A program made the translations under genes and the position numbers. DNA of 32,000 nucleotides from Fibrobacter succinogenes subsp. succinogenes S85 (lineage in GTDB: Bacteria; Fibrobacterota; Fibrobacteria; Fibrobacterales; Fibrobacteraceae): contig NC_017448.1 in the NCBI RefSeq assembly GCF_000146505.1, forward strand, positions 3,630,001-3,662,000. Reading direction: 5' to 3'. The first letter of the stretch is position 1. The number at the start of each line of letters is the position of its first letter. This document shows positions 5,341 through 22,496 of this stretch, piece after piece. Under the pieces are notes generated by a model. The model had not been told where the DNA came from. It ran no database searches and saw only the letters and a program-made list of their open reading frames with translations.

Positions 5341-5428
5341 AACGTAAGACTAAAAAAATTTAAATTTGGTCGTTAATAATTTATTTTTAGATAGATTTAA
5401 CGGCCCTGTGTGGGCATTGGAGTTGTGT

Positions 5429-6874
5429 ATGAATCGTTTGGTAAAAATGGGACTTGCCGGTTTGTTCGCTTTCGGGCTTGCCCAGGCTAAGGTCAATTTC
5501 CCGTTTCCGCAGATGTCGGATTACGGTGGAAATGCAACGCTTTTGAGCGACAAGGCCAAGGCCTCCGAAGAATTGAAGTCCCAGTTTGCCTACTGGCTCA
5601 AAACCATGTACAATGAAAATGGCGATGTTGCTGGTGTCCGTTCTGATCCGGGTTCTGATACGTATTTCTCGGAAGGTGTCGGTTACGGCATGCTTTTGAT
5701 GGTCTACTTTAGCGATAACACGACGAGCTATCAGCCGCAATTCGACAAGATTTGGAACTTCTACAAGAAGATGATGAACGAAAACGGCCTCATGATTTGG
5801 AAGGTTGGTAATCTTTCTCAGTCGTGGGATGCCGGTAATGGTGCAGCACTCGATGGCGATATCGATGCCGCCGCAGCTCTTGCAATGGCTTACTTCCAGT
5901 TCGGTGACGAAAAGTACAAGGAAGATGCCAAGAAGCTTATCCAAGCCATGAAAAAGTCTGAGTTCGAATCAAACGGTTTGCATTTGCCGGGCGACAAGTG
6001 GGGTGATGCCGCTTTGAACCGCAAGAACCCGGGCTATTTTGACCCTGCCTACATGCCGGTTTTTGCCTTGATCGATACGGACAATGCGGAATTCTGGAAC
6101 AAGACCGCTTACGATGCCAACATGAAGCTTTACGAAGCTAGCTCTGCAGAAGTTACGACGGGCCTCATTGATGACTGGACTGATAAAAACGGCAAGAGCG
6201 AAGATGACTACTATAGTTACGATGCTTCCCGCGCTCCGTGGCGCAATGCCAAGGCTGTTTGCTGGCATGGCGATACGCGTGCTCTCGCTCTCGACAAGAA
6301 AATGGCTGAATTTGTCTCTACCGTCAGTGCCGCCAACATGAAGGGCCCTGTCCTCAGATCTTCTGGTAGCCTCGGCAACGATCACAACAGCACGTTCGTG
6401 ACATCCCTCATGACGGCGCTTATCTCTGATGCAAAGTATCAGGCTAAGCTCGATGAATACTGGAAGGAAGCGGTTGCTCTCGGTGACGAAAACTACTTCA
6501 ATCAGTCCCTCAAGCTTTTGAACGGTTTGCTTGTTTCGGGTAACATGCCGAACCTCGCCGCTGCAACGCCTTCGCAGCCGACTTCTTCGAGCTCTGTGAC
6601 TCCGGAATCCAGCTCCAGCGATGCTACGATTGCCTTGCCGACTCTTGCAACGAAATCTCCGAAGATGACCCTCTCTGGCAGGTCTCTCCAGATTACCGCT
6701 AATGGTAATGTCCATGTGGATTTGATTTCTATGACGGGTAGCGTGTTGAAGTCTTTCGACAATCATGCCAATGGTTCTTTGAATGTTTCGCTGAAGTCTG
6801 TCCCGAACGGTCTCTATGTCGTTCGCGTGAAAAATGCAGGCGTCACGAGCCTTAAGAAAATCAAGCTCGACTAA
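5429..6874 (+). CDS. Secreted glycoside hydrolase family 8 endoglucanase with Ser/Pro linker and C-terminal beta-sandwich sorting domain (T9SS-CTD-like)
   Basis: ATG at 5429 gives the signal peptide MNRLVKMGLAGLFAFGLAQA; the upstream extension in the ORF track is probably not translated. GH8 motifs: YFSEGVGYGMLLMV (catalytic Glu region) and ALDGDIDAAAALAMAYFQF (close to the GH8 signature A-[ST]-D-[AG]-D-x2-[IM]-A-x-[SA]-[LIVM]). PSQPTSSSSVTPESSSS linker. The last ~70 aa (..VHVDLISMTGSVLKSF...GLYVVRVKNAGVTSLKKIKLD) resemble a Por/T9SS C-terminal domain. Confidence 0.85.
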   Translation: MNRLVKMGLAGLFAFGLAQAKVNFPFPQMSDYGGNATLLSDKAKASEELKSQFAYWLKTMYNENGDVAGVRSDPGSDTYFSEGVGYGMLLMVYFSDNTTSYQPQFDKIWNFYKKMMNENGLMIWKVGNLSQSWDAGNGAALDGDIDAAAALAMAYFQFGDEKYKEDAKKLIQAMKKSEFESNGLHLPGDKWGDAALNRKNPGYFDPAYMPVFALIDTDNAEFWNKTAYDANMKLYEASSAEVTTGLIDDWTDKNGKSEDDYYSYDASRAPWRNAKAVCWHGDTRALALDKKMAEFVSTVSAANMKGPVLRSSGSLGNDHNSTFVTSLMTALISDAKYQAKLDEYWKEAVALGDENYFNQSLKLLNGLLVSGNMPNLAAATPSQPTSSSSVTPESSSSDATIALPTLATKSPKMTLSGRSLQITANGNVHVDLISMTGSVLKSFDNHANGSLNVSLKSVPNGLYVVRVKNAGVTSLKKIKLD

Positions 6875-12700: not shown

Positions 12701-14203
12701 CGGGCTCTTGGAGTTGAATGCGAGTTCCGCAATCTTTTCCATCGGGATGCCGAGGCTGCGGGCGTACGTTTCGATGAATGAACCGCAACCCGAGGAGCAG
12801 GCTTCGTTGAGGATGATGCCCGTGACGACACCGTCTTGCACGGAGATGGCCTTCATGTCCTGACCACCGATATCCAAGATGAACGAGACGTCGGGGCAGA
12901 GGCGCTGGGCGGCATTTGCGTGGGCGACGGTTTCCACCGTGTGGTAGTCCGCGTGGACGGCCTTTGCAAAGAGCTGTTCGCCGTAGCCGGTTGTACCCAC
13001 GCCCAAGATGTTGAGCTTCACGCCGTATTCTTCGTAGCGGTCGGCGAGGTCCACCATGGCACGCTTCAAGACGGCGAGCGGTTCACCATCGTTACTGGCG
13101 TAGAAGCCGTCGATGACCTTTTCGTTCTCGTCGATGAGCACGAACTTCGTGGTGGTAGAACCTGCGTCAATGCCCAAGTAGACGTTGATGGTTGTGCCGG
13201 AAGGCGGCTGCGGGTAATGGTTGTCCGCCATTTTGTGCTCTTCGAGGAACAGCTTGTATTCCGCTTCGCTCTGGAAGAAGAGGTCGGAGGCTGCCTTGGC
13301 CTTGTTCTCGGCCTGGCGGATTTCGTTAAAGTGAACGAGCGCGTCGAGAGAACCCTCTTCGCGGTACATGCATTCCTGGTTTGCGAACATGGAGCCGTTA
13401 GCGAGAGCGGCGCCCATGGCAACGAGCACTTCGGAATGTTCCGGAACAATCGCCTGTTCGTCGGAGATGCCCAAGCGTTCCTTGAAAGCCTTCACGAGAG
13501 TCGGGTTAAATGTGAGCGGGCCACCTTCAAAAATGACCGGCGGCTTGATTTCCATACCTTGGGCGAGGCCACCGATGGTCTGCTTCGCGATAGCGTGGAA
13601 ACTTGAAAGGGCGATGTCTTCCTTCGCGATGCCGTTGTTGAGCATCGGCTGGATGTCCGTCTTGGCGAACACGCCGCAACGGCCCGAGATTTCATAGACT
13701 TTTTGGCCACGCTTGGCGTAGCTTTCGAATACTTCTGTCTTGATGCGGAGGAGCTCCGCGACCTGGTCGATAAATGCACCCGTACCGCCTGCGCACACGC
13801 CGTTCATGCGCATGTCGGAGGCGATGAGCTTACCGGTGGTCTTGTCCTTTTCGAAGAACACAACCTTGGCATCCTGACCGCCGAGTTCGATGGCGACCCT
13901 GGAATCGGGGTAGGTGGCACGCACGGCAAGTGCGTTTGCGACTACTTCTTGCACAAAGAAGGCGTGAGTGGCCTCGGCGAACGGCTGACCGCCGCTACCG
14001 CAGAACGTGACCCTGAAGTTCTTGCCCGGGAAAAGGGCATGGGCTTCGCGTAGGACCTCGTAGACCTTTTTCGCCTGCATGGCGTTATGACGCTGATATG
14101 TATAGTGTAAAAGCTTAGATGTCTCGGGATCGACTACAGCAATTTTCACAGTGGTGGAGCCTACGTCGACACCCACCCATAAATCGTTCATAGAAGTATT
14201 CAT
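9752..14203 (-). CDS. 1483-aa fusion protein: two BadF/BadG/BcrA/BcrD-type ATPase (2-hydroxyacyl-CoA dehydratase activase-like) domains plus a large C-terminal DUF2229/dehydratase-subunit-like region
   Basis: Two actin-fold ATPase starts (VGVDVGSTTVKIAV and LGIDAGSTTTKFVL), each followed by GGQD and CAGGTGAF / CSSGCGSF-type motifs. Cys-rich CQYCTNHCS. The architecture matches the widespread ~1400-aa 'CoA-substrate-specific enzyme activase' fusions. The antisense ORFs in this GC-rich gene are spurious. Confidence 0.9.
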   Translation of the reverse strand: MNTSMNDLWVGVDVGSTTVKIAVVDPETSKLLHYTYQRHNAMQAKKVYEVLREAHALFPGKNFRVTFCGSGGQPFAEATHAFFVQEVVANALAVRATYPDSRVAIELGGQDAKVVFFEKDKTTGKLIASDMRMNGVCAGGTGAFIDQVAELLRIKTEVFESYAKRGQKVYEISGRCGVFAKTDIQPMLNNGIAKEDIALSSFHAIAKQTIGGLAQGMEIKPPVIFEGGPLTFNPTLVKAFKERLGISDEQAIVPEHSEVLVAMGAALANGSMFANQECMYREEGSLDALVHFNEIRQAENKAKAASDLFFQSEAEYKLFLEEHKMADNHYPQPPSGTTINVYLGIDAGSTTTKFVLIDENEKVIDGFYASNDGEPLAVLKRAMVDLADRYEEYGVKLNILGVGTTGYGEQLFAKAVHADYHTVETVAHANAAQRLCPDVSFILDIGGQDMKAISVQDGVVTGIILNEACSSGCGSFIETYARSLGIPMEKIAELAFNSKSPSQLGSRCTVFMNSSIITEQRDGKQPEDIIAGICRSIINNVFTKVIRIRNLNTLGKKVVVQGGTFKNNAVLRAFEQYTGLKAIRPERPGEMGAIGIALLTKKFMEEKRAADPNVQSKFIGLEAMRTFSWHNQPGQLCQYCTNHCSRTIVTFSDGQSFVTGNRCERGEVTADPNDPATKKLIAEINKKMQAVPDMIKRTNQLLVKDYAPQILLPQNGKTIGIPRVLEFWNSLPYWKAFFTALGYTVVVSRQSDYKMFEAGLHSVPSDTVCFPAKLVHGHVLSLIEKKVDRIFFPMMISLPSDHTKFNATTVCPVVQGYPNICQNTDEPEKNYGIPMDQPIFHWANTKLRRSQTIDWFHDNWNIDRKTLDKAVTEGEKALNNYRTTLLEEGQKILDDVKANNSFAVVIAGRPYHADLLINHNIASHFTAMGIPVLTTESLPGVYDQDVPNHTRVEIKNTFHLRMLGATMIASRDPHVELAQIVSFGCGHDSVLTDEMMRMMHRDSNKEMLMLKLDEGDARGPVGIRIKSFIETVKARRAANLPEKPISNEPQFHTPFVASDKNKRIILTPNLSPAFAILASSYIQGKGYLSDYLPVADKRAIELGKKYVHNDICFPCQINIGECLKWLEEHPNVPQTEVSMCLAKNCENCRAVQYSVLGRKALDEAGYKDVSIITTGVDTTGMHPGFQLGLDFRLHTLWGLAFMDAIETAYRALRPYEIHKGDSKKIYSKWMPELMKTAATLKKTELGSAKRLVEMLRQCIDEFNKVEITEARQKGVRKPRVAVLGEILMNYHPSANGHVEDYLMDNGMEVYLPGMMDFFRVDEVVRAEKIKRGFSANPIADRLEGGVTSKLFEHAAATANKVMQSFKLYEHHADCFELVNYIDGIIDPTYNTGEGWLIPAEILYNSKHGINSFIIVQPFACLANHISGRGLTKAVKERCPHVQILSLDYDPDTSFANIENRLQMLIINARELERANKVNATARQ

Positions 14204-14335
14204 AGTGAAGCCAAATTTAGTTTTTTTTCATTATTTGAAAATGTTTTTTGGCGTTTATGGCGATAAAACGTGCAATTTGGCGGATTTTGGGTAATTGTTC
14301 ATATGTGCAGATTGTTGTAAGGGACCGCGCAAAAC

Positions 14336-14361
14336 AAAAAGAGGCCTGCAGACCTCTTTTT
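14336..14361 (-). terminator. Possible terminator downstream of the first Rpn-like gene
   Basis: aaaaAGAGGcctgcagaCCTCTtttt: a short stem flanked by A and T runs, 29 nt beyond the stop of the minus-strand gene. Confidence 0.4.
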
Positions 14362-14389
14362 ATATGCACTTCAGGGGTGGATTGAGCTG

Positions 14390-15424
14390 TTATTTGATTG
14401 CATCTCCCATCAATGAAGCCTTCAGCTCAAGAATCTTGCTTTCAGGCAAATGCGAATACTTGACGATTTTCCCGATAGGTTCGTTATCGGCAAGCATGGC
14501 GAGAGCCATTTCGACACGCCCTTGTTCGAGACCTTGTTCAAGTCCCTGTTTAAGCCCCTGTTTAAGTCCTTTCTTTTCGGCACGGACTTCCAGCAAAGCC
14601 AAGTGATCCAATTCCTCTTCTGTCCATACCATATCGTTAGCCTGTTCCCTGATGAGTTTTTCTGACGCTCTGTTCACCAAAATTCTGTTGATTGCCTTCG
14701 CAATGATGCTATTGTTGAAATCCGGAAGATTTTCGGCCTTCCCGGCATATTTTAGCAGATAAAGCCAACGATCTTCGGTTGTCGTGATTTTTTTGTAAGG
14801 TTTGTTGAACTTAGTCAGATCATATAGAATATACATCATCTTGTCGGTTAGTGTCAAGCCTTTCTTATTGCGAACAGCCCAATCTCCACGAAACGACTTC
14901 TGTTTGCCTATGGAAAAATCGCAAATCCAGATGGCGTAAGTCGGAGGAACTTCGTACCGGTGGATTTCGCGCTCGGCACGTTCCTCTTTAGTTAGACAGG
15001 ATGGAAGGTCTCCGAAATTCAGCTTGTCCCATTCGTATTTGCTCTGGAGCATGAATGCAGATTGCTGTAAAAGAACTCGGTCGACAAAGTAGTCGGGCCT
15101 TGCCTTTTGCATCTCTATGTTTATGCAAATTCCTTTCGAAGTTTTGGCACGAATGTCGAGCCTGAATTGCTTTGCCGATGGAAAAATGATGTTGATTTCG
15201 GAATTCTTGATGACAACGGATTCAATTTTGTTGTCTTCATTCAGATGAAATACCCCATTCAGAAAATTGACCAAAGCTTCTTCATCACTCAGAAAAGCCT
15301 TGAATGCCGCATCAAAGAGCGGATCGAGATAGGTGTGTTTCTTGATTTCTTCAATTGTTTTCTCGACCAGTTGATCGCGAGATGAGGGAATGGAAAATTC
15401 GAGCGTATTTTGAGTTTCTGACAT
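14390..15424 (-). CDS. Rpn/YhgA-like PD-(D/E)XK 'recombination-promoting nuclease / putative transposase' family protein (TIGR01784-like), copy 1
   Basis: N-terminal YLDPLFDAAFKAFL..., nuclease core ...RLDIRAKTSKGICINIEMQKARPDYFVDRVLLQQS (D...E-x-Q-K). Typical family C-terminus: (GLxQ)n followed by VEMALAMLADNEPIGKIVKYSHLPESKILELK. Confidence 0.8.
   Translation of the reverse strand: MSETQNTLEFSIPSSRDQLVEKTIEEIKKHTYLDPLFDAAFKAFLSDEEALVNFLNGVFHLNEDNKIESVVIKNSEINIIFPSAKQFRLDIRAKTSKGICINIEMQKARPDYFVDRVLLQQSAFMLQSKYEWDKLNFGDLPSCLTKEERAEREIHRYEVPPTYAIWICDFSIGKQKSFRGDWAVRNKKGLTLTDKMMYILYDLTKFNKPYKKITTTEDRWLYLLKYAGKAENLPDFNNSIIAKAINRILVNRASEKLIREQANDMVWTEEELDHLALLEVRAEKKGLKQGLKQGLEQGLEQGRVEMALAMLADNEPIGKIVKYSHLPESKILELKASLMGDAIK
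14520..14567 (-). repeat. 12-bp in-frame tandem repeat x4 encoding (GLKQ/GLEQ)4 in Rpn copy 1
   Basis: ccttgttcgaga / ccttgttcaagt / ccctgtttaagc / ccctgtttaagt on the plus strand. Rpn copy 2 has only about one and a half units at the equivalent site. Confidence 0.8.
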
Positions 15425-15488
15425 AAAATTCCTTGCCTTGCGGCGGTTAAAATCGAGAAGGCTAGTTTGCTGAGTTCGCCCTCCTCTA

Positions 15489-15604
15489 TATTAACACGCT
15501 TGAGCAAGCCATTTGTCCCAAGAAATCTTTGTAAAATATTTTTAGGCAGGAGCGGGGCATGCGTGGATGATTGCAAACGACGTTACTTTTGTATATTGCG
15601 TTGT
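15489..15604. promoter_or_regulatory. Divergent intergenic control region Rpn1 <-> paralog P1; copy A of a duplicated 116-bp block
   Basis: A gapless hand alignment with 20923-21038 gives 11 mismatches in 116. There is a 51-nt perfectly identical core (15547-15597 = 20981-21031: caggagcggggcatgcgtggatgattgcaaacgacgttacttttgtatatt). Confidence 0.7.
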
Positions 15605-15607
15605 ATG
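15587..15607 (+). promoter_or_regulatory. Conserved start motif TTTTGTATATT-N4-TGT-ATG of paralog P1
   Basis: The same 21-nt motif ends in the start codon of all four paralogs and contains TATATT 7 nt upstream of the ATG. In P1 and P4 it also contains TActTTTG. Confidence 0.55.
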
Positions 15608-16996
15608 AAAAAGAAATTGTGTTTAGTTGTAATTTGGTTTGCTCTGATTGTTTGTTCGCTATTTTGCACATCATGTTCCGATGATTTGAAGAACATTGAT
15701 TTAAAACGTGATTCCCTAAGTTCGGAAACATGGCTCGAAGTCGAGAAGAACGATTCCCTCAAAATTTGCATGGACTCAAAAGTCCGCACGTGGGAAACTT
15801 CGCTGAATACAGAAATTCTAAACGATTCATGTTTAAAATTTCAAGTTCCAGAACTTAACGGAATCAATACAATCAATATAAAGTTTCCAGATTCTGACAG
15901 CGTCTATAAAATCAATTTAGCTGTCGGTATGAAGTATTTGAACTTCAAAAATGAAGAAACTTTATATGGTAATGACGATTACCAAATGAATCCTTATGAA
16001 GAAAAAATCGTATATGTTACGGGTTCCTATTTAGTTGATAAATACCCTGTGACTAATTGTGATTTTTTACAATTGTTATGGGATGAAATTCCTCTAAATT
16101 CTCCCCAAATAGATACCATGGAAAAAGACTTTACAAAATTTTGGGTACAAAAAAAAGAATCAAGAAAAAATAACGAAAAATGTATTACCCATGATTCTGC
16201 AGCAAGTACAATTCCTTTATATTTGGCGATGAAATATGCCAATATTCGCAGTCTTCGCGAAGGTCTAGAACCGTATTATATCTTTTCAAACACTAGTAAT
16301 AAATTTGTACAAATTGATCGCAAAGCAAGGTCTGTCAATCGTAACGGAATTGAAGAAGTTCCCGAGCATCATTATTTTATCGTTTACCATGATTTCATAG
16401 AGCATGAAAATAACTTGATAGAAGTTTATGATAATTCGTCTTCTGATGGTTATCGGCTTCCTTATTATGACGAATGGGTTATGTTAGCTCGTGGTGGTGA
16501 TAAAAACAACACCCCCTGGAATGAATCTGCATCTTTTAAAGAAATTTCTAAATACGCAAAATTCGAAGATAAGGTAAGTTGTTCTGATTTAAATGATTCA
16601 GGTCCTTTATATAGTATAATATCATTTTTTCATTGGTGCAAAAATGATTATGAATCAGGACCTGTTGGAAAACTCTTGCCTAATGGATTTGGTTTATATG
16701 ATATATTTGGCCTAGTTGAAGAACAAGTTCTATTTGAAAAGCATAATTATTCAAGAGATAATTATAATGTTTTTTTTACCATTGAACCTAAAGAAGAAAA
16801 AAAAAGAAACCCATTAAGATGCATAGATGATTGCCCAGCTTGTTTAAAAGGTGGAATTCGTCGTTCTGACTTAGAAAGAATTAATTATGGTTATATTTCG
16901 AACGATTATTTTCCTAAATATTCCGGCGGTTTCCGCCTAATCCGCAACATCGGCAACAACGCCAAATGGAGCGAAGTTAAGCTTGACAAGGAATAA
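15605..16996 (+). CDS. Paralog P1: lipoprotein with a conserved ~80-aa N-terminal domain and a FGE/SUMF1 (C-type-lectin-like fold) domain
   Basis: ATG 15605 gives MKKKLCLVVIWFALIVCSLFCTSCSDD (lipobox). SUMF1 hallmarks: LVDKYPVTNCDFLQLLW, GYRLPYYDEWVMLARGGDK, PNGFGLYDIFGLVEEQV, CLKGG, GGFRLIRNIGNNAKW. The upstream part of the ORF-track call (15467-15604) is non-coding promoter sequence. Confidence 0.85.
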   Translation: MKKKLCLVVIWFALIVCSLFCTSCSDDLKNIDLKRDSLSSETWLEVEKNDSLKICMDSKVRTWETSLNTEILNDSCLKFQVPELNGINTINIKFPDSDSVYKINLAVGMKYLNFKNEETLYGNDDYQMNPYEEKIVYVTGSYLVDKYPVTNCDFLQLLWDEIPLNSPQIDTMEKDFTKFWVQKKESRKNNEKCITHDSAASTIPLYLAMKYANIRSLREGLEPYYIFSNTSNKFVQIDRKARSVNRNGIEEVPEHHYFIVYHDFIEHENNLIEVYDNSSSDGYRLPYYDEWVMLARGGDKNNTPWNESASFKEISKYAKFEDKVSCSDLNDSGPLYSIISFFHWCKNDYESGPVGKLLPNGFGLYDIFGLVEEQVLFEKHNYSRDNYNVFFTIEPKEEKKRNPLRCIDDCPACLKGGIRRSDLERINYGYISNDYFPKYSGGFRLIRNIGNNAKWSEVKLDKE

Positions 16997-17034
16997 TTTT
17001 TTCCTGAAAATGTAGAACCGAGCAATTTCCTTTT

Positions 17035-17055
17035 TTTTGTATATTCTGTTGTATG
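17035..17055 (+). promoter_or_regulatory. Conserved start motif of paralog P2
   Basis: ttttgtatattctgttgtATG, preceded by a T8 run. Confidence 0.55.
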
Positions 17056-18375
17056 AAAATAAAGATTCTTTTACTATGTGTATCTTTTTTTGTTCTTGTT
17101 TTGAATGCGTGCTCGAATAGCGTTAAAAAACAGGATATTTCAGCGGGAATAATAAAGCAGTTTAGCCCGATAGAAAGAATCTTTGATGTAATCCGAGATT
17201 CTCTGGGCGAAGAAAACTGGCTTGAAGTCGAAAAAAATGAAAACGTTAAAATTTGTGTTGACCAGAAAGTTTTTGCTTGGAAGACGGTATTAAAATCAAG
17301 TGTTCTCAATGATTCCTGCTTAGTTTTCCAAGCTCCGACTCTTGTTGGAGTCGAAACTGTTGATGTGTCTTTTTCGGAAGCGGATAGTTCGCATAAAATC
17401 AATTTAGCCATCGGAATGAAATACTTAAATTTCAAGAATGAAGAAGTTCTGTTAGGATTTAACACATGTCGAGAAAACCAACTTGTCGGTCGATGCAAAA
17501 ACGAAGATCCAGAAAGACTATTTTCTGTAACGGGCACTTACTTAGTCGATAAATATCCTGTTACCAACTGCGAGTTTACGCAACTGATGTGGGATAGCAT
17601 TCCAGCAACATCCTTGTATAGAAACGAATCGTTAAGAAAGGATTATTATGAAGATTGGCTAAACAGAAAAAGTGCTTCTAAACGTAATGAAAACTGCATA
17701 ACACAAGACACGGCTGCCAATACTGTATCTTTATTTCAGGCGATGAAATATGCAAATGCACGCAGTATTCGTGAAGGTCTAAAGCCTTATTATATATTTG
17801 CTCCTGTAGAAGAATATGCAGAAAGAGAAAGTATTTTATCGACTACACAACGTATAGTAACTCGTAGGGATTTTACTATACATGATATCAAATATATTCA
17901 AGTTTCTGACGACAGTACCTCGAACGGTTATAGACTTCCATATTACAATGAATGGATGATGTTTGCTCGTGGTGGCGACAAAAAGAATATGGCCCCCTGG
18001 GGAGACTCTTCGGGCACTTTCGAAAAAACAAAAAAATACGCCAGATTTAAAACAAAAATGGTTTCTTTTGAAACAGAACCCGTTGGCCAGCTGACACCCA
18101 ATGGATACGGATTATACGATATGTTTGGTCTCGTTCAAGAGCATGTACTCTTAAAATCAAGTTTGTTTAGAGGAGACCTTGGTTTTGCGTCTTGTTTGAA
18201 GGGCGGAGATTATCACGTTTCTCTAGAAGACGGATCCGACGACACCTTAAGTCCTTATTGGAAATGGATAAGCTACGGATATTACGAACCAGGTCATCAA
18301 GGTTATGGAGCTGGTTTCCGTCTCATCCGCAACATCGGCAATAATGCTAAGTGGACCTATCTCAAGTCCAAATGA
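17053..18375 (+). CDS. Paralog P2: FGE/SUMF1-fold lipoprotein
   Basis: MKIKILLLCVSFFVLVLNACSNS (lipobox). It has the same N-terminal domain (ENWLEVEKNENVKICVD...KINLAIGMKYLNFKNEE) and SUMF1 motifs, and ends ...GAGFRLIRNIGNNAKWTYLKSK. Confidence 0.85.
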   Translation: MKIKILLLCVSFFVLVLNACSNSVKKQDISAGIIKQFSPIERIFDVIRDSLGEENWLEVEKNENVKICVDQKVFAWKTVLKSSVLNDSCLVFQAPTLVGVETVDVSFSEADSSHKINLAIGMKYLNFKNEEVLLGFNTCRENQLVGRCKNEDPERLFSVTGTYLVDKYPVTNCEFTQLMWDSIPATSLYRNESLRKDYYEDWLNRKSASKRNENCITQDTAANTVSLFQAMKYANARSIREGLKPYYIFAPVEEYAERESILSTTQRIVTRRDFTIHDIKYIQVSDDSTSNGYRLPYYNEWMMFARGGDKKNMAPWGDSSGTFEKTKKYARFKTKMVSFETEPVGQLTPNGYGLYDMFGLVQEHVLLKSSLFRGDLGFASCLKGGDYHVSLEDGSDDTLSPYWKWISYGYYEPGHQGYGAGFRLIRNIGNNAKWTYLKSK

Positions 18376-18379
18376 CAAC

Positions 18380-18400
18380 TTTTGTATATTCAATTGTATG
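18380..18400 (+). promoter_or_regulatory. Conserved start motif of paralog P3
   Basis: ttttgtatattcaattgtATG. It begins 5 nt after the P2 stop codon. Confidence 0.55.
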
Positions 18401-19687
18401 AAAAAGATTTTTTGTTTGGTTGCAAGTTATGGGGCCGTAATTGCCGGCTTGTTATTTTGTACAGCCTGCTCAGATAGGGAAAAATATATCGCTTTAAATC
18501 GAGGTTCTTTAAAAAACGAAACTTGGCTTGAAGTTGAAAAGAATGAAACGGTAAAAATCTGCATAGATTCCAAAGTACAAGTATGGAACACTGCACTGGA
18601 TTCTGAAATTCTTGGTGAATCCTGTTTAAAAGTTCGAGTTCCAACGCTTATTGGAGTCAGCACAATCGATGTGTTTTTTTCTAATACAGAAAGTTCCTAC
18701 AAAATCAATTTAGCGGTCGGGATGAAGTATCTGGACTTAAAAAACGAAGATGTTCTGTTAGGATTTGATTATATGCATGAATATATAGATAATGAAAGAC
18801 TAGCAAAAATCACAGGAATGTTTTTAGTTGATAAATATCCTGTTACTAACTGCGAATTTTTACAGTTAATGTGGGATGAAATTCCTTCAGAACTACATGA
18901 TGAAAAAGAAAAAAATTGGATTAAAAGAAAGAAGTTAAGCGTACGTAAAGAAGGTTGCGACACACACGACTCTGCGACAAATATTGTTTATTTATATCAA
19001 GCCTTAAAATATGCAAATAAGCGCAGTATTCGAGAAGGATTAAAACCGTATTATACATTTTCAGAAGAAACATTCTCGAAAAATGAATTTGAATATGATA
19101 AAACTATATCTGAAGGTCAATATATTATAAGCTATCGTGATTTCACCCACCATGATGAAACGCGAATCAAAGTTTCAGTTGATTCATCTTCGGATGGTTA
19201 TCGACTACCCTATTACGATGAATGGATGATGTTAGCTCGAGGCGGAGATAAGAAGCACAAAGCACCTTGGGGGGATTCAGCGACGTTTAAAGATGTACAA
19301 AAATACGCAAAATTCAATGATAAAACTGAATATTATGAAAAAATAAATAGTTCTATAACAGGACCTGTAGGCCAGTTACAGCCTAATGGATATGGTTTGT
19401 ATGATATTTTCGGTCTAGTTAATGAACTGGTTTTATTAGAGAAACCCCAAAAATTCAGAAAGTACCAAATATTATCAAGACCTAACCCCAATAGACCTCG
19501 TTACGCTAATACAAACTGTAAAAGGAAAAACAATTGTCCTTCTTATTTAAAGGGAGGAGGCGCTGATGATAATTGGCAAAATATTAGCTATGGGTATTAT
19601 TCATATGGTAGTATTGGCGGTTTCCGCCTCATCCGCAACATCGGCAATAACGCCAAATGGAGCGAAGTCAAGTCTGACAAGGAATAA
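18398..19687 (+). CDS. Paralog P3: FGE/SUMF1-fold lipoprotein
   Basis: ATG 18398 gives MKKIFCLVASYGAVIAGLLFCTACSDRE (lipobox). Same domain order. The C-terminus GGFRLIRNIGNNAKWSEVKSDKE is nearly identical to that of P1. Confidence 0.85.
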   Translation: MKKIFCLVASYGAVIAGLLFCTACSDREKYIALNRGSLKNETWLEVEKNETVKICIDSKVQVWNTALDSEILGESCLKVRVPTLIGVSTIDVFFSNTESSYKINLAVGMKYLDLKNEDVLLGFDYMHEYIDNERLAKITGMFLVDKYPVTNCEFLQLMWDEIPSELHDEKEKNWIKRKKLSVRKEGCDTHDSATNIVYLYQALKYANKRSIREGLKPYYTFSEETFSKNEFEYDKTISEGQYIISYRDFTHHDETRIKVSVDSSSDGYRLPYYDEWMMLARGGDKKHKAPWGDSATFKDVQKYAKFNDKTEYYEKINSSITGPVGQLQPNGYGLYDIFGLVNELVLLEKPQKFRKYQILSRPNPNRPRYANTNCKRKNNCPSYLKGGGADDNWQNISYGYYSYGSIGGFRLIRNIGNNAKWSEVKSDKE

Positions 19688-19713
19688 CCTGTTCCTGAAA
19701 TGACATTATCCAA

Positions 19714-19737
19714 ATGAGGCCTACGGCCTCATTTTTT
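19714..19737 (+). terminator. Rho-independent terminator of P3
   Basis: ATGAGGCC-tac-GGCCTCAT followed by TTTTT. Confidence 0.8.
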
Positions 19738-19760
19738 ACGCACTGTTTCGTATTCTCACC

Positions 19761-19785
19761 AGATTCTCGCTTTTGCGAGAATGAC
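19761..19785 (-). repeat. GTCAT...ATCT hairpin element, short form (minus strand: GTCAT-TCTCGC-aaaa-GCGAGA-ATCT)
   Basis: Perfect stem. It has the same frame as the copy at 6959 but a different, internally compensated stem sequence. Confidence 0.8.
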
Positions 19786-19792
19786 GAAATGC

Positions 19793-19844
19793 AGATTTCG
19801 CCCTTGCGGAGTTTATCCCGAACTTGTTTCGGAATGGAAATGAC
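19793..19844 (-). repeat. GTCAT...ATCT element, long form (52 nt)
   Basis: The minus strand reads GTCATTTC-CATTCCGAAacaagTTCGGGATaaactccgcaagggc-GAAATCT. The basal stem is ATTTC/GAAAT and there is an inner hairpin. It lies 7 nt from the short copy. Confidence 0.6.
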
Positions 19845-19846
19845 GG

Positions 19847-19870
19847 TAAAATCCCGGCATAAAGCCGGGA
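19847..19870 (-). terminator. Rho-independent terminator of Rpn copy 2
   Basis: The minus strand reads TCCCGGC-tttat-GCCGGGA followed by TTTT, about 10 nt after the stop codon. Confidence 0.7.
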
Positions 19871-19880
19871 AATCCGGTTG

Positions 19881-20879
19881 TTACTTAAGAGCGTTCTTCG
19901 CCAGTGACTGTTTCAGTTCAAGAACTTTATCCTCGGAAAGACGGGAGTACTTGACGATTTTTTCAACAGGCTCGTCATCAGCAAGCATGTCAAGAGCCAT
20001 TTCAACATTTCGGTTATCACGCCCTTGTTCAAGCCCTTGTTCACGTCCTTTGAGCCAAATTTCGGCTTCGATAGCTTCATCAGCGTGTTTATCGAACATA
20101 TGTTCCTCCAAGGCTTTAAGCAGTTCAGGGCTTATGCGGCTTACGCGCAAACGGTTGAGCGCATCCCTAAAGATCGGGTCCTTCGATTCGGGAACTTCAA
20201 GTGGCCCTTGAGACAAGAGTTTCAGCCAGTAGTCCTCGCGTGAACTGATGCTCTTGCGAATCCTCTTAAAGTTCGGTAAATCAATTACAATATATCTATT
20301 TTTACTGAAAATGGGAAGAGCCCGATGTGTTGAGTCGCTGTGGTGAACTTCGTCCTCGCTATAGACCGCCCAAGTGTCCTTAAAAATATCCTTTGACTTG
20401 AGAATTTGGAAATTACAAAGCCAGATGGACACCGTTTCGGGAAGTTCATAAAAATGAACCTTACGTTCCTTTTCGTCCATCAATTTGAAATACGTTGACC
20501 TGTTATACTCGTACTTGCCACGCAATGTTTGATAGGAATTGTAGAGTTGGAGACGGTCAAGAAAGAATGGATGGCTTCTATTCTGCATCTCTATGTTGAA
20601 ATAACGGTGATCCTTTGTTGTTACCCACACGTCTAGGCGCGCGGAGTCATCTTCCGGCATGAAAACGTCAATGGGCTTTTCGAACTCGTAGTCGAGATCA
20701 ATGATTTCATGGTCATGGTCAAGCCCAAGCAAACAATTGAGCATATCGCGGATGGTGTCCTTGTCATCCATCAGCACACGGAACGTTTCGCTGTAATATG
20801 GAAGCAAAAATTCCTCACCCTGCGCGTTCGTGACGATGTAGTAGGCCTTCTTTTCTGAAGTTGTGTTATTTTCGGTCAT
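19881..20879 (-). CDS. Rpn/YhgA-like PD-(D/E)XK recombination-promoting nuclease / putative transposase family protein, copy 2
   Basis: Core ...RLDVWVTTKDHRYFNIEMQNRSHPFFLDRLQLYNS. The C-terminus REQGLEQGRDNRNVEMALDMLADDEPVEKIVKYSRLSEDKVLELK is colinear with copy 1. Confidence 0.8.
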   Translation of the reverse strand: MTENNTTSEKKAYYIVTNAQGEEFLLPYYSETFRVLMDDKDTIRDMLNCLLGLDHDHEIIDLDYEFEKPIDVFMPEDDSARLDVWVTTKDHRYFNIEMQNRSHPFFLDRLQLYNSYQTLRGKYEYNRSTYFKLMDEKERKVHFYELPETVSIWLCNFQILKSKDIFKDTWAVYSEDEVHHSDSTHRALPIFSKNRYIVIDLPNFKRIRKSISSREDYWLKLLSQGPLEVPESKDPIFRDALNRLRVSRISPELLKALEEHMFDKHADEAIEAEIWLKGREQGLEQGRDNRNVEMALDMLADDEPVEKIVKYSRLSEDKVLELKQSLAKNALK

Positions 20880-20922
20880 TTACAATTCCTTTAGAGGGTT
20901 GGTTATGATTTGCCCCCTATAC

Positions 20923-21038
20923 TATTAACACGCTTCAGCAAGCCGTTTGGCTCATGAAAACTTTGTAAAATATTTTTAGACAGGAGCGGGGCATGCGTGG
21001 ATGATTGCAAACGACGTTACTTTTGTATATTCAACTGT
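20923..21038. promoter_or_regulatory. Divergent intergenic control region Rpn2 <-> paralog P4; copy B of the duplicated 116-bp block
   Basis: See 15489-15604. Confidence 0.7.
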
Positions 21039-21041
21039 ATG
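21021..21041 (+). promoter_or_regulatory. Conserved start motif of paralog P4
   Basis: ttttgtatattcaactgtATG. Confidence 0.55.
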
Positions 21042-22457
21042 AAAAAAATTTTGTTGTTCCTAACGATATGCGTTACGTTTGCGAATGCTCAATTCTATTA
21101 CGACAAGCATGGAGAAAGTCGCGGTGCGTATAAGGACAGCTTGGAGTATTCAAAGCTTGTTGGGCTTGCAAAAAGATTTCGTGGTCCGATATTGGTGAAA
21201 AAGCCGGTTGATGGCGTCAAACCAAGAAAAAATTTGGAAAAGATTCCTGAAAATAAAATTCAAAGAACATTTAATGTAAATCGCGATACTTTGAACAAAG
21301 AAAAGTGGCTCGAAGTGGAGAAAAACGAAATCGTCAAAATTTGTGTTGATGCACCTGTTGTCGCATGGGAAACTTCCTTAAACGCGATTATATCTAGCGA
21401 TTCGTGCCTGACATTCGAAACACCGACGCTTATTGGTGTTGAAACACTTAGGGTGCATTTCCCTGACTCGGATAGTTCGAAGAAAATCAATTTAGCAGTC
21501 GGGATGAAGTATCTTGATTTCAAAAACGAAGAAGTTCTGTTAGGATTTAATCGATACTCCGAAAAAGAATTAAAGATGCAAGGGTTTTGCAATACAGAGG
21601 AGAACGGAACAATAGCTTGTGGTCCCAAAAATGAGGATCCAGAAAGGCTTGTTTCCATTACTGGTACATACTTAGTCGATAAATATCCTGTTACAAACTG
21701 CGAATTTACACAACTGATGTGGAATGATAGTCTTCTTGATTATAAGTGGCAAAACAGAAAGAGAGCTTCTATACGTAATGGAAACTGCATAACACAAGAC
21801 ACGGCCGCAAATACTGTATCTCTATTTTGGGCTATGGAATATGCCAACGCACGCAGTATTCGTGAAGGTCTAAAGCCTTATTATATATTTTCTCCTGTAG
21901 AATATGCAGAAAGAGAAAGTATTTTATCGGCTCGACAACGTATTATTAAACAATATGTTCTCGGATATATTCAAGTTTCTGACGACAGTACCTCGAACGG
22001 TTATAGACTTCCATATTACAATGAATGGATGATGCTTGCTCGTGGTGGCGACAAAAAGAATAGGGCCCCTTGGGGAGATTCTTCGGGCTCTTTTGAAAAA
22101 ACAAAAAAATACGCTAGATTTAAAACAAAAATGGTTTCCTTTGAAACGGAACCCGTTGGCCAGCTGACTCCCAATGGATACGGATTATATGATATGTTTG
22201 GTCTCGTTCAAGAGCATGTTCTTTTTGAATACGATTTGTTTGAAGGAAACATGGGGTTCGCATCCTGTCTAAAAGGTGGCGATTATCACGTTTCTCTAGA
22301 AGATGGGTTCGACGATACTTTAAGTCCTTATTGGAAATGGATAAGCTACGGGTATTATGAACCTGGTCATCCAGGTAATGGAGCGGGTTTCCGCCTAATC
22401 CGCAACATCGGCAATAACGCCAAATGGACCAAAATTAAAACAGTTGGCAAAGAGTAG
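21039..22457 (+). CDS. Paralog P4: secreted FGE/SUMF1-fold protein (SPase-I-type signal, extra ~70-aa N-terminal insert); body most similar to P2
   Basis: ATG 21039 gives MKKILLFLTICVTFANA-QF. Long near-identical DNA runs are shared with P2, for example 17894-17961 vs 21967-22034, which is identical by eye. It ends GAGFRLIRNIGNNAKWTKIKTVGKE. Confidence 0.85.
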   Translation: MKKILLFLTICVTFANAQFYYDKHGESRGAYKDSLEYSKLVGLAKRFRGPILVKKPVDGVKPRKNLEKIPENKIQRTFNVNRDTLNKEKWLEVEKNEIVKICVDAPVVAWETSLNAIISSDSCLTFETPTLIGVETLRVHFPDSDSSKKINLAVGMKYLDFKNEEVLLGFNRYSEKELKMQGFCNTEENGTIACGPKNEDPERLVSITGTYLVDKYPVTNCEFTQLMWNDSLLDYKWQNRKRASIRNGNCITQDTAANTVSLFWAMEYANARSIREGLKPYYIFSPVEYAERESILSARQRIIKQYVLGYIQVSDDSTSNGYRLPYYNEWMMLARGGDKKNRAPWGDSSGSFEKTKKYARFKTKMVSFETEPVGQLTPNGYGLYDMFGLVQEHVLFEYDLFEGNMGFASCLKGGDYHVSLEDGFDDTLSPYWKWISYGYYEPGHPGNGAGFRLIRNIGNNAKWTKIKTVGKE

Positions 22458-22496
22458 TGACCTGCCGCTAAGCAACAAAATACTATCTTATTTCTC

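What the first reader, a model, noticed from the sequence alone, without database searches (positions are those of the whole stretch)
14390..22457. Rpn-type nuclease genes paired with a mosaic array of four FGE/C-type-lectin-fold surface proteins: candidate recombination-driven surface-variation cassette system
Seen in sequence:
- Gene order is Rpn1(-), P1, P2, P3 (+), then Rpn2(-), P4(+).
- Each Rpn gene is divergently paired with a paralog across the same duplicated 116-bp intergenic block (11 mismatches, 51-nt identical core).
- P4 is a mosaic. Its upstream region matches that of P1, while its body matches P2, with runs of identical DNA such as 17894-17961 = 21967-22034 and high identity over ~17690-17855 vs ~21780-21945.
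- P1 and P3 form a second, more diverged pair.
- All four genes keep an invariant 21-nt motif at the start codon and a near-invariant 43-bp block at the 3' end. The interior carries many substitutions and indels, especially between the LKGG and GFRLIRN motifs.
- The whole block is visibly AT-richer than the flanking activase and AlgX-like genes.

Established knowledge:
- YhgA/Rpn (TIGR01784, PD-(D/E)XK) proteins of E. coli are nucleases that stimulate RecA-independent recombination.
- The FGE-type C-type-lectin fold is the scaffold of hypervariable DGR receptor proteins (Treponema denticola TvpA) and of the GldJ/GldK/PorK lipoproteins.

Inference: the conserved end blocks act as recombination anchors, and the adjacent Rpn nucleases promote exchange or gene conversion among cassettes. 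This would diversify a surface ligand-binding repertoire without a reverse transcriptase. I am not aware of a described Rpn-plus-CLec-lipoprotein variation system.
Basis: partly seen in the sequence, partly recalled or inferred. Interest (0 to 1): 0.82.

Follow-up and report, generated by a model that had tools for sequence, protein, structure and literature searches.

The report
Variable lectin-fold gene array with Rpn toxins
This is a strain-variable island in the rumen bacterium Fibrobacter succinogenes, where four old paralogs of a secreted lectin-fold protein family sit among two Rpn toxin-antitoxin nuclease genes; the array is reshuffled between strains by ordinary recombination at conserved gene ends, and nothing shows that the Rpn nucleases drive it.

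Summary
The sequence observation is correct in every detail I could check. The window is F. succinogenes S85, genes Fisuc_2582-2587.

**Supported:**
- All four P genes are PF03781 proteins. The P2 model has a signal peptide, an Ig-like domain and an FGE/C-type-lectin fold, and its best structural match is T. denticola TvpA.
- Both nucleases are Rpn family members with an intact D...E-x-Q core.
- The conserved P-gene ends do behave as recombination junctions between strains.
- Rpn-like genes are clearly enriched next to these arrays. About one third of sampled Rpn loci touch a P gene.

**Not supported:** a dedicated Rpn-driven cassette system.
- At the same chromosomal site, other Fibrobacter genomes carry from 1 to at least 8 P genes with no Rpn, and these arrays show the same cassette-wise exchange.
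- The S85 paralogs are saturated at synonymous sites, apart from one old P2/P4 tract (dS 0.43).
- Every copy is a full-length gene with its own signal peptide.
- The left half of the "116-bp block" is the promoter region found upstream of all the Fibrobacter Rpn genes sampled.
- Rpn proteins are now known as RpnL/RpnS toxin-antitoxin antiphage genes that move horizontally, and RpnA cuts DNA with little sequence specificity.

**Best reading:** a hypervariable paralog array that doubles as a landing site for defence-type nuclease cargo. Interest is moderate.

The parts
14390..15424 (-). Rpn1 (Fisuc_2582), an RpnL-type PD-(D/E)XK nuclease. Core residues D90, E104, Q106, R116. Four GLKQ/GLEQ repeats. 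Internal Met265 lies 21 residues before the repeats and is a candidate RpnS start.
   Evidence: RpnA catalytic residues are from PMC5350276; the repeat/RpnS rule is from PMC10400941.
14515..14569 (-). 12-nt tandem units that encode the four-amino-acid repeats of Rpn1.
   Evidence: family D9. Copy number ranges from 2 to about 13 among alleles.
15489..15540 (.). Rpn upstream region. It holds the box TATTAACACGC (15489-15499) and TTTGTAAAATATT (15528-15540), and forms the left half of the 116-bp block.
   Evidence: the box lies upstream of every Fibrobacter Rpn-like gene seen, whether or not a P gene is adjacent.
15587..15614 (+). P-family start motif TTTTGTATATT-N4-TGTATGAAAA, here at P1.
   Evidence: (D10). 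It is present at nearly every P gene in all arrays.
15605..16996 (+). P1 (Fisuc_2583), a lipoprotein-type signal peptide (…LFCTSC-SDD) followed by the family's N-terminal domain and FGE domain (fold modelled for P2 only).
17053..18375 (+). P2 (Fisuc_2584). The structure was modelled (pLDDT 83) and its best fold match is TvpA.
18398..19687 (+). P3 (Fisuc_2585).
19881..20879 (-). Rpn2 (Fisuc_2586), 35% identical to Rpn1. Core residues D83, E97, Q99, R109. Two repeats. Met261 lies 17 residues before them.
20923..21054 (.). Second copy of the block: Rpn box at 20923-20933, TTTGTAAAATATT at 20962-20974, and the P start motif at 21021-21048.
   Evidence: (D8).
21039..22457 (+). P4 (Fisuc_2587), with a signal-peptidase-I type leader (FANA/QFYYDKHGESRGA). 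It is chimeric: its own 5' third is joined to a P2-like 3' two-thirds.
17656..18357 (+). The P2 side of the P2/P4 shared tract. Its partner is 21747-22430.
   Evidence: (D2, D3, D11).
16925..16972 (+). Conserved 3' block encoding GFRLIRNIGNNAKW. Further copies lie at 18310-18357, 19616-19663 and 22383-22430. Cross-strain junctions map here.
   Evidence: (D6).

Best explanation
The segment between the BcrAD/BadFG-type activase gene and the ALGX-domain gene is a strain-variable island.

**What it holds.**
- Four ancient paralogs of a family that, in every hit carrying an organism name, comes from Fibrobacter. Each encodes a secreted protein or lipoprotein. The P2 model has an Ig-like beta-sandwich followed by an FGE-type C-type-lectin fold.
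- Two RpnL/RpnS-type nuclease toxin-antitoxin genes.

**How it changes.** The array gains, loses and swaps whole genes between strains. This happens by ordinary homologous recombination and unequal crossing-over at the family's conserved blocks: the start motif, the conserved 5' region and the 3' GFRLIRNIGNNAKW block.

**Role of the Rpn genes.** They are horizontally mobile defence-type cargo. They land in these recombination-prone arrays and are carried along with neighbouring P cassettes. They are passengers rather than the engine.

**Shown:** the families, the fold, the junction positions, the strain-to-strain variation, the enrichment of Rpn near arrays, and the existence of Rpn-free arrays.

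**Inferred:** the hitchhiking mechanism, the surface location and ligand-binding role of P, and the toxin-antitoxin/antiphage role of these particular Rpn genes.
For: **The same site differs between genomes**:

| Locus | Content between activase and ALGX |
|---|---|
| L021 | 1 P, no Rpn |
| L024 | Rpn1' plus a truncated P4' |
| S85 | 4 P, 2 Rpn |
| L043 | 5 P, 2 Rpn, with a different first Rpn+P unit |
| L019 | Rpn2'-type next to the activase |
| L002 | 5 P, no Rpn (both flanks seen) |
| L003/L012 | at least 8 P, no Rpn |

**Junctions fall at conserved blocks**.

**Modules move between sites.** The L043 [Rpn-P465] module is 88.5% identical to a module at a different locus, next to a proton-antiporter gene (L029).

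**Rpn-free arrays exchange cassettes too.** One cassette is 98-99% identical across three species-level genomes whose activase flanks are about 91% identical, and its edge falls on the start motif.

**The Rpn genes are typical RpnL/RpnS genes.** They show variable four-amino-acid repeats (2 to about 13 copies), swapped C-terminal tails and a conserved internal Met (PMC10400941).

**Rpn-like genes also occur in other variable contexts.** Examples are beside Cas12a CRISPR, a capsule glycosyltransferase locus, and a PheS/giant-protein junction.

**Other defence-type cargo is present.** An AAA-ATPase_like+PDDEXK_9 gene sits inside the L012 array. An AAA_15/AAA_21 pair in L024 and a GIY-YIG gene in S85 occupy a second variable spot just after ALGX.

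**Some P-adjacent Rpn genes look decayed.** Three of six in the metagenome loci are split into two ORFs.
Against: - The enrichment of Rpn genes beside P genes is strong. About 8 of 24 sampled Rpn contexts touch a P gene, while P genes are roughly 0.3-0.5% of genes, and at least five Rpn subtypes at four or more sites are involved. A plain "hotspot" explanation does not fully account for this.
- The 51-nt identical core between the two S85 junctions is more conserved than either flanking gene. That implies conversion or strong constraint at exactly the Rpn-P junction.
- Rpn genes elsewhere in a genome could act in trans on Rpn-free arrays.
- Most comparison genomes are MAGs or short metagenome contigs, so some junctions, especially the L063 fusion, could be assembly chimeras.
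- No expression or functional data exist for any of these genes.
Confidence: 0.6

Rival explanations
1. The embedded Rpn nucleases make local breaks that promote exchange or gene conversion among P cassettes. The conserved blocks serve as anchors. The result is diversification of a surface-binding repertoire without a reverse transcriptase.
For: - Rpn-like genes are enriched next to P arrays.
- Junctions fall at conserved blocks.
- P2 population variants carry P4-type or P1/P3-type C-terminal tails.
- Overexpressed E. coli RpnA-D raise RecA-independent recombination (PMC5350276).
- A different PD-(D/E)XK gene sits in an array that lacks Rpn.
Against: - At the same site, arrays of 5 and at least 8 genes have no Rpn and still show unequal-crossover deletions and cassette swaps.
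- Paralogs are saturated at synonymous sites, and only one old tract is shared.
- RpnA has little sequence specificity (PMC5350276), so targeting of the blocks is unexplained.
- Rpn genes are now explained as toxin-antitoxin antiphage genes (PMC10400941).
- Several P-adjacent Rpn genes appear to be decayed.
- Rpn genes of the same clades also sit in unrelated contexts.
Confidence: 0.1
2. The island is a defence or immunity island. The P proteins would be polymorphic periplasmic or surface binders, for example immunity proteins against secreted toxins like the FGE-like Tsi3 family, or phage-receptor variants or decoys. They would cluster with antiphage genes because both are under the same antagonistic selection.
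For: - FGE-like proteins form a T6SS immunity family that works by binding rather than catalysis (bioRxiv 10.1101/2021.05.21.445229).
- The P proteins carry signal peptides and have hypervariable loops on the lectin-fold face.
- Defence-type genes are neighbours: Rpn, AAA_15/AAA_21, GIY-YIG and PDDEXK_9.
- Orthologous P genes have dN/dS of 0.22-0.33, against 0.04-0.13 for flanking genes.
Against: - No toxin or effector gene lies next to any array examined.
- PADLOC finds nothing for the P proteins.
- No direct similarity to Tsi3 was tested.
- dN/dS stays below 1.
Confidence: 0.12
3. The Rpn toxin-antitoxin modules are retained inside the arrays because they stabilise them. A deletion by unequal crossover that removes an Rpn gene would be counter-selected, in the way toxin-antitoxin cassettes stabilise Vibrio superintegron arrays.
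For: - Rpn genes sit between or at the edges of direct-repeat P genes that are prone to deletion.
- Deletion variants do exist.
- Rpn genes have a toxin-antitoxin nature (PMC10400941).
- The superintegron precedent is from my own knowledge.
Against: - Toxin and antitoxin are encoded by the same gene, so a deletion removes both. Addiction would need a long-lived toxin, which has not been shown.
- The largest arrays have no Rpn.
- Variants that lost Rpn2 together with P3-P4 are observed.
Confidence: 0.06

Closest known systems
RpnL/RpnS toxin-antitoxin antiphage genes (E. coli RpnA-E, RpnP2; Zhong et al. 2023, PMC10400941; Kingston et al. 2017, PMC5350276)
   Same: - PD-(D/E)XK N-terminal domain with D...E-x-Q.
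[quoted passage not shown]
- A conserved internal Met 17-21 residues before the repeats.
- No terminal inverted repeats.
- Gain and loss between close strains, with variable ends.
   Different: - These genes are mostly the PF12784 (PDDEXK_2) branch rather than PF04754.
- Translation of an RpnS product, toxicity and phage defence are all untested here.
- The Fibrobacter genes share a conserved upstream box, GCGTGTTAATAT.
- They are strikingly often next to one paralog family.
Treponema denticola TvpA and other FGE-type C-type-lectin-fold DGR variable proteins
   Same: TvpA is the best structural match to the P2 model (Foldseek E 1e-11; sequence E 4e-5). The most variable P segments lie between LKGG and GFRL.
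   Different: - No reverse transcriptase or template repeat lies nearby.
- Variation is between paralogs and alleles, with ordinary substitutions and indels.
- P proteins have an extra N-terminal Ig-like domain.
Cassette-based antigenic variation (Neisseria pilE/pilS, Borrelia vlsE, Anaplasma msp2)
   Same: Tandem related cassettes with conserved end blocks and variable interiors.
   Different: - Every P copy is a complete gene with its own start codon and signal peptide.
- There is no single expression site.
- Synonymous divergence between copies is saturated, so exchange is rare rather than programmed.
Defence islands and integration hotspots; toxin-antitoxin cassettes in superintegron arrays
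   Same: - The site is variable between conserved core genes.
- Defence-type nuclease and ATPase genes turn over there.
- Cargo is exchanged through flanking homology.
   Different: - The "scaffold" here is a paralog array of secreted lectin-fold proteins.
- It is not an integron or a prophage.
- No integrase or attachment site is present.
FGE-like Tsi3 T6SS immunity proteins (bioRxiv 10.1101/2021.05.21.445229)
   Same: The FGE fold is used as a non-enzymatic binding scaffold in an envelope-targeted protein.
   Different: No adjacent effector gene is present, and no direct homology test was run.

Membership tests
Rpn family (PF12784 / TIGR01784; RpnL/RpnS) | Profile match above the curated cut-off. 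| tested here: met
   PF12784 scores 88.2 bits (Rpn1) and 57.2 bits (Rpn2) against a cut-off of 27.4. TIGR01784 scores 82.4 bits for Rpn1 (cut-off 52.1), but Rpn2 reaches only 46.5 bits, just below.
Rpn family (PF12784 / TIGR01784; RpnL/RpnS) | Intact PD-(D/E)XK core equivalent to RpnA D63, E82, Q84, R94. | tested here: met
   Rpn1 has D90, E104, Q106, R116 and Rpn2 has D83, E97, Q99, R109. The RpnA residues are from PMC5350276. The D11 equivalent is clear in Rpn1 (LFDAAFK) but shifted in Rpn2 (YSETFR).
Rpn family (PF12784 / TIGR01784; RpnL/RpnS) | Variable C-terminal domain with four-amino-acid repeats that begin 8-20 residues after an internal Met (RpnS). | tested here: met
   GLKQ/GLEQ units occur in 2 to about 13 copies among alleles, and tails are swapped between alleles. 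Met265 lies 21 residues and Met261 lies 17 residues before the repeats. Translation of an RpnS product was not tested.
Rpn family (PF12784 / TIGR01784; RpnL/RpnS) | Toxicity blocked by RpnS; antiphage activity. | not testable with these tools
   This needs experiments.
FGE-sulfatase / C-type-lectin-fold superfamily (PF03781) | Profile match above cut-off and the FGE-type fold. | tested here: met
   PF03781 scores 34.9-77.2 bits against a cut-off of 23.3. The AlphaFold model has pLDDT 83 and pTM 0.86. Fold matches are TvpA, PvdO and PorK.
Diversity-generating retroelement target | A nearby reverse transcriptase and a template repeat matching the variable region. | tested here: not met
   No RT domain is on record among the called genes of the 21-kb locus. 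There are no repeat pairs other than paralog matches.
PorK/GldK T9SS ring lipoprotein (TIGR03525) | Equivalog score of at least 350 bits. | tested here: not met
   The score is 43-46 bits, and only over the shared FGE core.
Cassette-type antigenic variation system | One expression site plus promoterless, truncated silent cassettes. | tested here: not met
   All four copies, and nearly all copies in other arrays, are full-length with a start codon, a signal peptide and the start motif.
Cassette-type antigenic variation system | Frequent segmental gene conversion between copies. | tested here: not met
   Five of six pairs show no breakpoint, with dS of 1.4-3. The one shared tract has dS 0.43. 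Within-culture frequency is not testable here.
Cassette-type antigenic variation system | Conserved flanking blocks used as recombination junctions. | tested here: met
   Cross-strain junctions lie at the 3' block and at the start motif.

The most novel reading that the evidence does not exclude
PD-(D/E)XK nuclease genes are recruited into these lectin-fold arrays because their occasional DNA breaks raise local recombination. The nucleases involved would be Rpn of several subtypes and, in one array, an AAA-ATPase/PDDEXK_9 gene. The pairing would then be a selected, RT-independent diversification module for a surface-binding repertoire in Fibrobacter. The conserved Rpn-P junction, with its 51-nt identical core, would be part of that coupling.
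Probability: 0.1. Interest if true: 0.8.

Novelty: new member of a known kind. Interest (0 to 1): 0.38.

Why it matters
- **Correcting a tempting story.** The Rpn genes here are best read through the 2023 toxin-antitoxin/antiphage model, not as a recombination engine.
- **An uncharacterised family.** The work documents a paralog family, seen so far only in Fibrobacter, that combines an Ig-like domain with an FGE/lectin fold. Its copy number at one site ranges from 1 to at least 8 between close relatives. This makes it a candidate for strain-level differences in adhesion, phage susceptibility or antagonism in a key rumen fibre degrader.
- **A real statistical link.** Rpn genes and these arrays are genuinely associated, and all the sampled Fibrobacter Rpn genes share an upstream box. 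Either observation could lead to how Rpn genes are regulated and why they settle where they do.

Tried and rejected
- **Rfam scan** of 14000-23000 at E up to 1 found no RNA family, so the block is not a known riboswitch or sRNA.
- **Sigma-70 promoter and terminator scan** gave 30 sites against 22±5 expected, which is not informative.
- **PADLOC** found no defence-system hit for P or Rpn, apart from a weak "putative invertase" tail match for Rpn1.
- **PDB sequence search with Rpn1** found no solved relative.
- **Literature searches** found nothing. I searched for the S85 locus tags Fisuc_2582-2587 and for Fibrobacter together with TIGR01784/PF12784.
- **First tblastn screen** (Rpn1/Rpn2, E below 1e-5) under-detected Rpn-like genes. 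It missed the divergent PDDEXK_2 gene in L004 and the Transposase_31 gene in L006, and I found these only through the shared upstream box. I therefore dropped my early conclusion that only 3 of 22 loci carry Rpn.
- **The 116-bp block as a mobile-element end or site-specific recombination site:** rejected. There are no inverted repeats and no recombinase, and the left half is simply the Rpn upstream region.
- **DGR:** rejected, because there is no reverse transcriptase or template repeat.
- **Look-up of P0139 (Fibrobacter sp. UWB2)** failed, as the protein is not on record.

Full report
**1. Source and observation**

The window is Fibrobacter succinogenes S85 (CP001792.1, around 3.19-3.21 Mb). 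The six genes are Fisuc_2582 to Fisuc_2587.

- Gene order and coordinates are as stated.
- The 116-nt block has exactly 11 mismatches and a 51-nt identical core.
- The 68-nt identical run between P2 and P4 is confirmed.
- The start motif is TTTTGTATATT-N4-TGTATGAAAA. The 3' block encodes GFRLIRNIGNNAKW.
- GC content drops to 0.33-0.39 in the P genes, against 0.53-0.56 in the flanking genes.

The family assignments also hold.
- Both nucleases match PF12784. Rpn1 matches TIGR01784 above its cut-off, and Rpn2 falls just below it.
- All four P proteins match PF03781.
- Rpn1 and Rpn2 are only 35% identical.

**2. What the P proteins are**

- They carry signal peptides of two kinds. One is a lipoprotein type ending in …C-S-D-D (P1, P2, P3). 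The other is a signal-peptidase-I type, FANA/QFYYDKHGE (P4).
- An AlphaFold model of P2 (pLDDT 83, pTM 0.86) shows an Ig-like beta-sandwich at about residues 40-135, followed by an FGE-type fold.
- The best structural match is T. denticola TvpA (Foldseek E 1e-11), followed by PvdO and PorK.
- Across 62 family members the most variable stretches are the domain linker, residues 191-200, 251-280 and 331-340, and above all 391-400 and 411-420. The last two lie between LKGG and GFRL.
- The family has more than 430 clusters at 90% identity, and every hit that carries an organism name is from Fibrobacter. The proteins are annotated only as FGE/SUMF1-like.

**3. What the Rpn genes are**

- Both keep the RpnA-type core (D...E-x-Q...R, with the RpnA residues from PMC5350276).
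- Their C-termini carry four-amino-acid repeats (GLKQ/GLEQ). Copy number varies from 2 to about 13 among alleles.
- The C-terminal tails are swapped between otherwise similar alleles.
- A conserved Met lies 17-21 residues before the repeats.
- This is the RpnL/RpnS gene-within-gene architecture of Zhong et al. 2023 (PMC10400941). That paper reports four things:
  - Rpn genes are toxin-antitoxin antiphage genes.
  - They are gained and lost horizontally as single genes.
  - Their ends are variable.
  - They are not transposases.
- Kingston et al. 2017 (PMC5350276) found that RpnA cuts DNA with little or no sequence specificity.

**4. The "shared 116-bp block" is composite**

I aligned the upstream regions of 16 Rpn-like genes from many contexts.
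- The box GCGTGTTAATAT (Rpn orientation) and an ATTTTACAAAG-like element precede every one of them.
- This includes genes beside PheS and beside a capsule locus. It also includes a very divergent PDDEXK_2 gene and a Transposase_31 gene.
- All exact hits of the 11-mer in about 700 kb of fetched DNA lie upstream of an Rpn gene.

The left half of the block therefore belongs to the Rpn gene and is probably its promoter. The right end is the P-family start motif, which is found at nearly every P gene in all arrays. Only the central roughly 45 nt is specific to this lineage. Its near-identity in S85, L043, L019 and L024 implies either conversion or constraint at that junction.

**5. Comparison across genomes**

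A protein-pattern scan of species-representative genomes returned 22 loci, all in Fibrobacter MAGs. Exact-protein look-ups added closer strains. At the same site, between the activase and ALGX genes, I found the following states:

| Locus | Content between activase and ALGX |
|---|---|
| L021 | one P, no Rpn |
| L024 | Rpn1' (93%) plus a P4' truncated to 168 aa |
| S85 | Rpn1-P1-P2-P3-Rpn2-P4 |
| L043 (P2 98% identical) | RpnA-P465-P2-P3-Pextra-RpnB-P4 |
| L019 | Rpn2'-type next to the activase, then at least 3 P |
| L002 | five P, no Rpn, both flanks visible |
| L003/L012 | at least 8 P, no Rpn, but one AAA-ATPase_like+PDDEXK_9 gene |
| L014, L015 | at least 3 and at least 5 P, no Rpn visible |

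The junctions between S85 and L043 fall at three places:
- exactly at the Rpn stop codon;
- inside the P1 3' block;
- inside the P3 3' block, as a one-gene indel.

The replaced [RpnA-P465] unit of L043 is 88.5% identical to a unit at another chromosomal site, next to a proton-antiporter gene (L029). The extra P of L043 is 94% identical to the P gene on the other side of that Rpn.

A 2-kb metagenome contig (L063) carries a P2 allele joined inside the 3' block to the P4 tail and the start of ALGX. It is either a deletion variant or an assembly chimera. P2 population variants also carry P4-type or P1/P3-type tails.

Rpn-free arrays behave the same way:
- L002 differs from L003 by a one-gene deletion within the conserved 5' region.
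- One cassette is 98-99% identical across three species-level MAGs whose flanks are about 91% identical. Its edge falls on the start motif.

**6. How fast is the exchange?**

- Within S85, only the P2/P4 pair shows a breakpoint (0.64 versus 0.87 identity; 0 of 200 permutations reach the statistic).
- The shared tract has dS 0.43, which is older than the S85-L043 split (dS 0.03-0.43 across genes). All other paralog pairs have dS of 1.4-3.
- Orthologous P genes have dN/dS of 0.22-0.33, against 0.04-0.13 for flanking genes. They evolve faster, but not under overall positive selection.
- This is slow, population-level reshuffling. It is not programmed switching.

**7. Is Rpn associated with the arrays?**

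Yes.
- **From the P side:** Rpn-like genes of at least five subtypes lie directly next to P genes at four or more chromosomal sites, but in none of the 10-kb flanks beyond the arrays.
- **From the Rpn side:** 2 of 7 contexts reached from Rpn1 homologs, and 6 of 17 Rpn loci found with an Rpn1-clade promoter pattern in metagenomes, have an adjacent P gene.
- **Scale of the enrichment:** I saw about 8-12 P genes per genome, which I estimate at 0.3-0.5% of genes. The enrichment is therefore tens-fold. The samples are not phylogenetically independent.
- **Other contexts:** the same Rpn clades also sit beside Cas12a CRISPR, capsule genes, Fib_succ_major proteins and a giant protein.
- **Decay:** three of the six P-adjacent metagenomic Rpn genes are split into two ORFs.

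**8. Verdict**

The specific claim that Rpn nucleases drive a cassette-variation system is not supported, for the reasons in sections 3 to 6.

The best-supported reading is a hypervariable paralog array that also serves as a landing and carrying site for defence-type nuclease cargo. It could be tested by long-read sequencing and rpn mutants.

Noticed in passing
window 15489-15499 and 20923-20933; also L004 11394, L026 8003, L029 7924, L031 6421 and 7923, L036 7926: A conserved "Rpn box", GCGTGTTAATAT in Rpn orientation, resembles an extended -10 element (TGnTAATAT). In the loci aligned it sits about 55-80 nt upstream of the annotated start of every Fibrobacter Rpn-like gene seen. This includes subtypes only 19-35% identical to each other and a Transposase_31 type. 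In about 700 kb of fetched DNA, no exact hit lies anywhere else.
   Followed up: partly
window 15587-15614, 17035-17062, 18380-18407, 21021-21048: The P-family start motif TTTTGTATATT-N4-TGTATGAAAA contains two TGTAT direct repeats 12 nt apart. It is conserved at nearly every P gene in all arrays and genomes, although the proteins are only about 50% identical. It could be a promoter, a translation signal or a regulator site, and this is unresolved.
   Followed up: partly
L012 9768-11372: An AAA-ATPase_like (PF09820) + PDDEXK_9 (PF08011) gene is inserted between P genes in the otherwise Rpn-free array of MAG RGIG5926. This is a different PD-(D/E)XK family in the same kind of position.
   Followed up: partly
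window 24340-24630; L024 3520-5474; L043 16063-16162: There is a second variable spot just downstream of ALGX. S85 has a 96-aa GIY-YIG gene there, the close strain L043 has nothing, and L024 has an AAA_15/AAA_21 ATPase (430 aa) plus a 220-aa partner, which looks like a defence-type pair.
   Followed up: partly
L063 1-2049: A metagenome contig carries a P2 allele (96.5% to S85) that switches inside the conserved 3' block to the P4 tail and runs straight into ALGX. It is either a natural deletion of P3-Rpn2-P4 or an assembly chimera.
   Followed up: yes
L002 11532-12901, L003 12988-14510, L015 939-2461: One P cassette is 98-99% identical across three species-level MAGs whose neighbouring activase genes are about 91% identical. 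This suggests recent cassette transfer between lineages.
   Followed up: partly
window 14390-14545 versus 19881-20048: Rpn1 and Rpn2 are 35% identical overall but share a much more similar C-terminal (RpnS-region) tail, VEMAL.MLAD.EP..KIVKYS.L.E.K.LELK. They differ in repeat number (4 versus 2). Other alleles of each type carry entirely different tails, so the tails are exchanged between Rpn genes.
   Followed up: partly
window 599-3538 and 5366-6874: The window holds a further FGE-domain protein of 979 aa, preceded by a one-mismatch copy of the TTTGTATATT motif at 569. It also holds a GH8 glycoside hydrolase with a Por_Secre_tail (T9SS) C-terminal domain.
   Followed up: no
L031 6474-8996: This locus has a tandem arrangement of an Rpn2-type gene, a fragment of the L004-type and an Rpn1-type gene. 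Each full gene has its own upstream box. This is an Rpn gene array of the kind described by Zhong et al.
   Followed up: no
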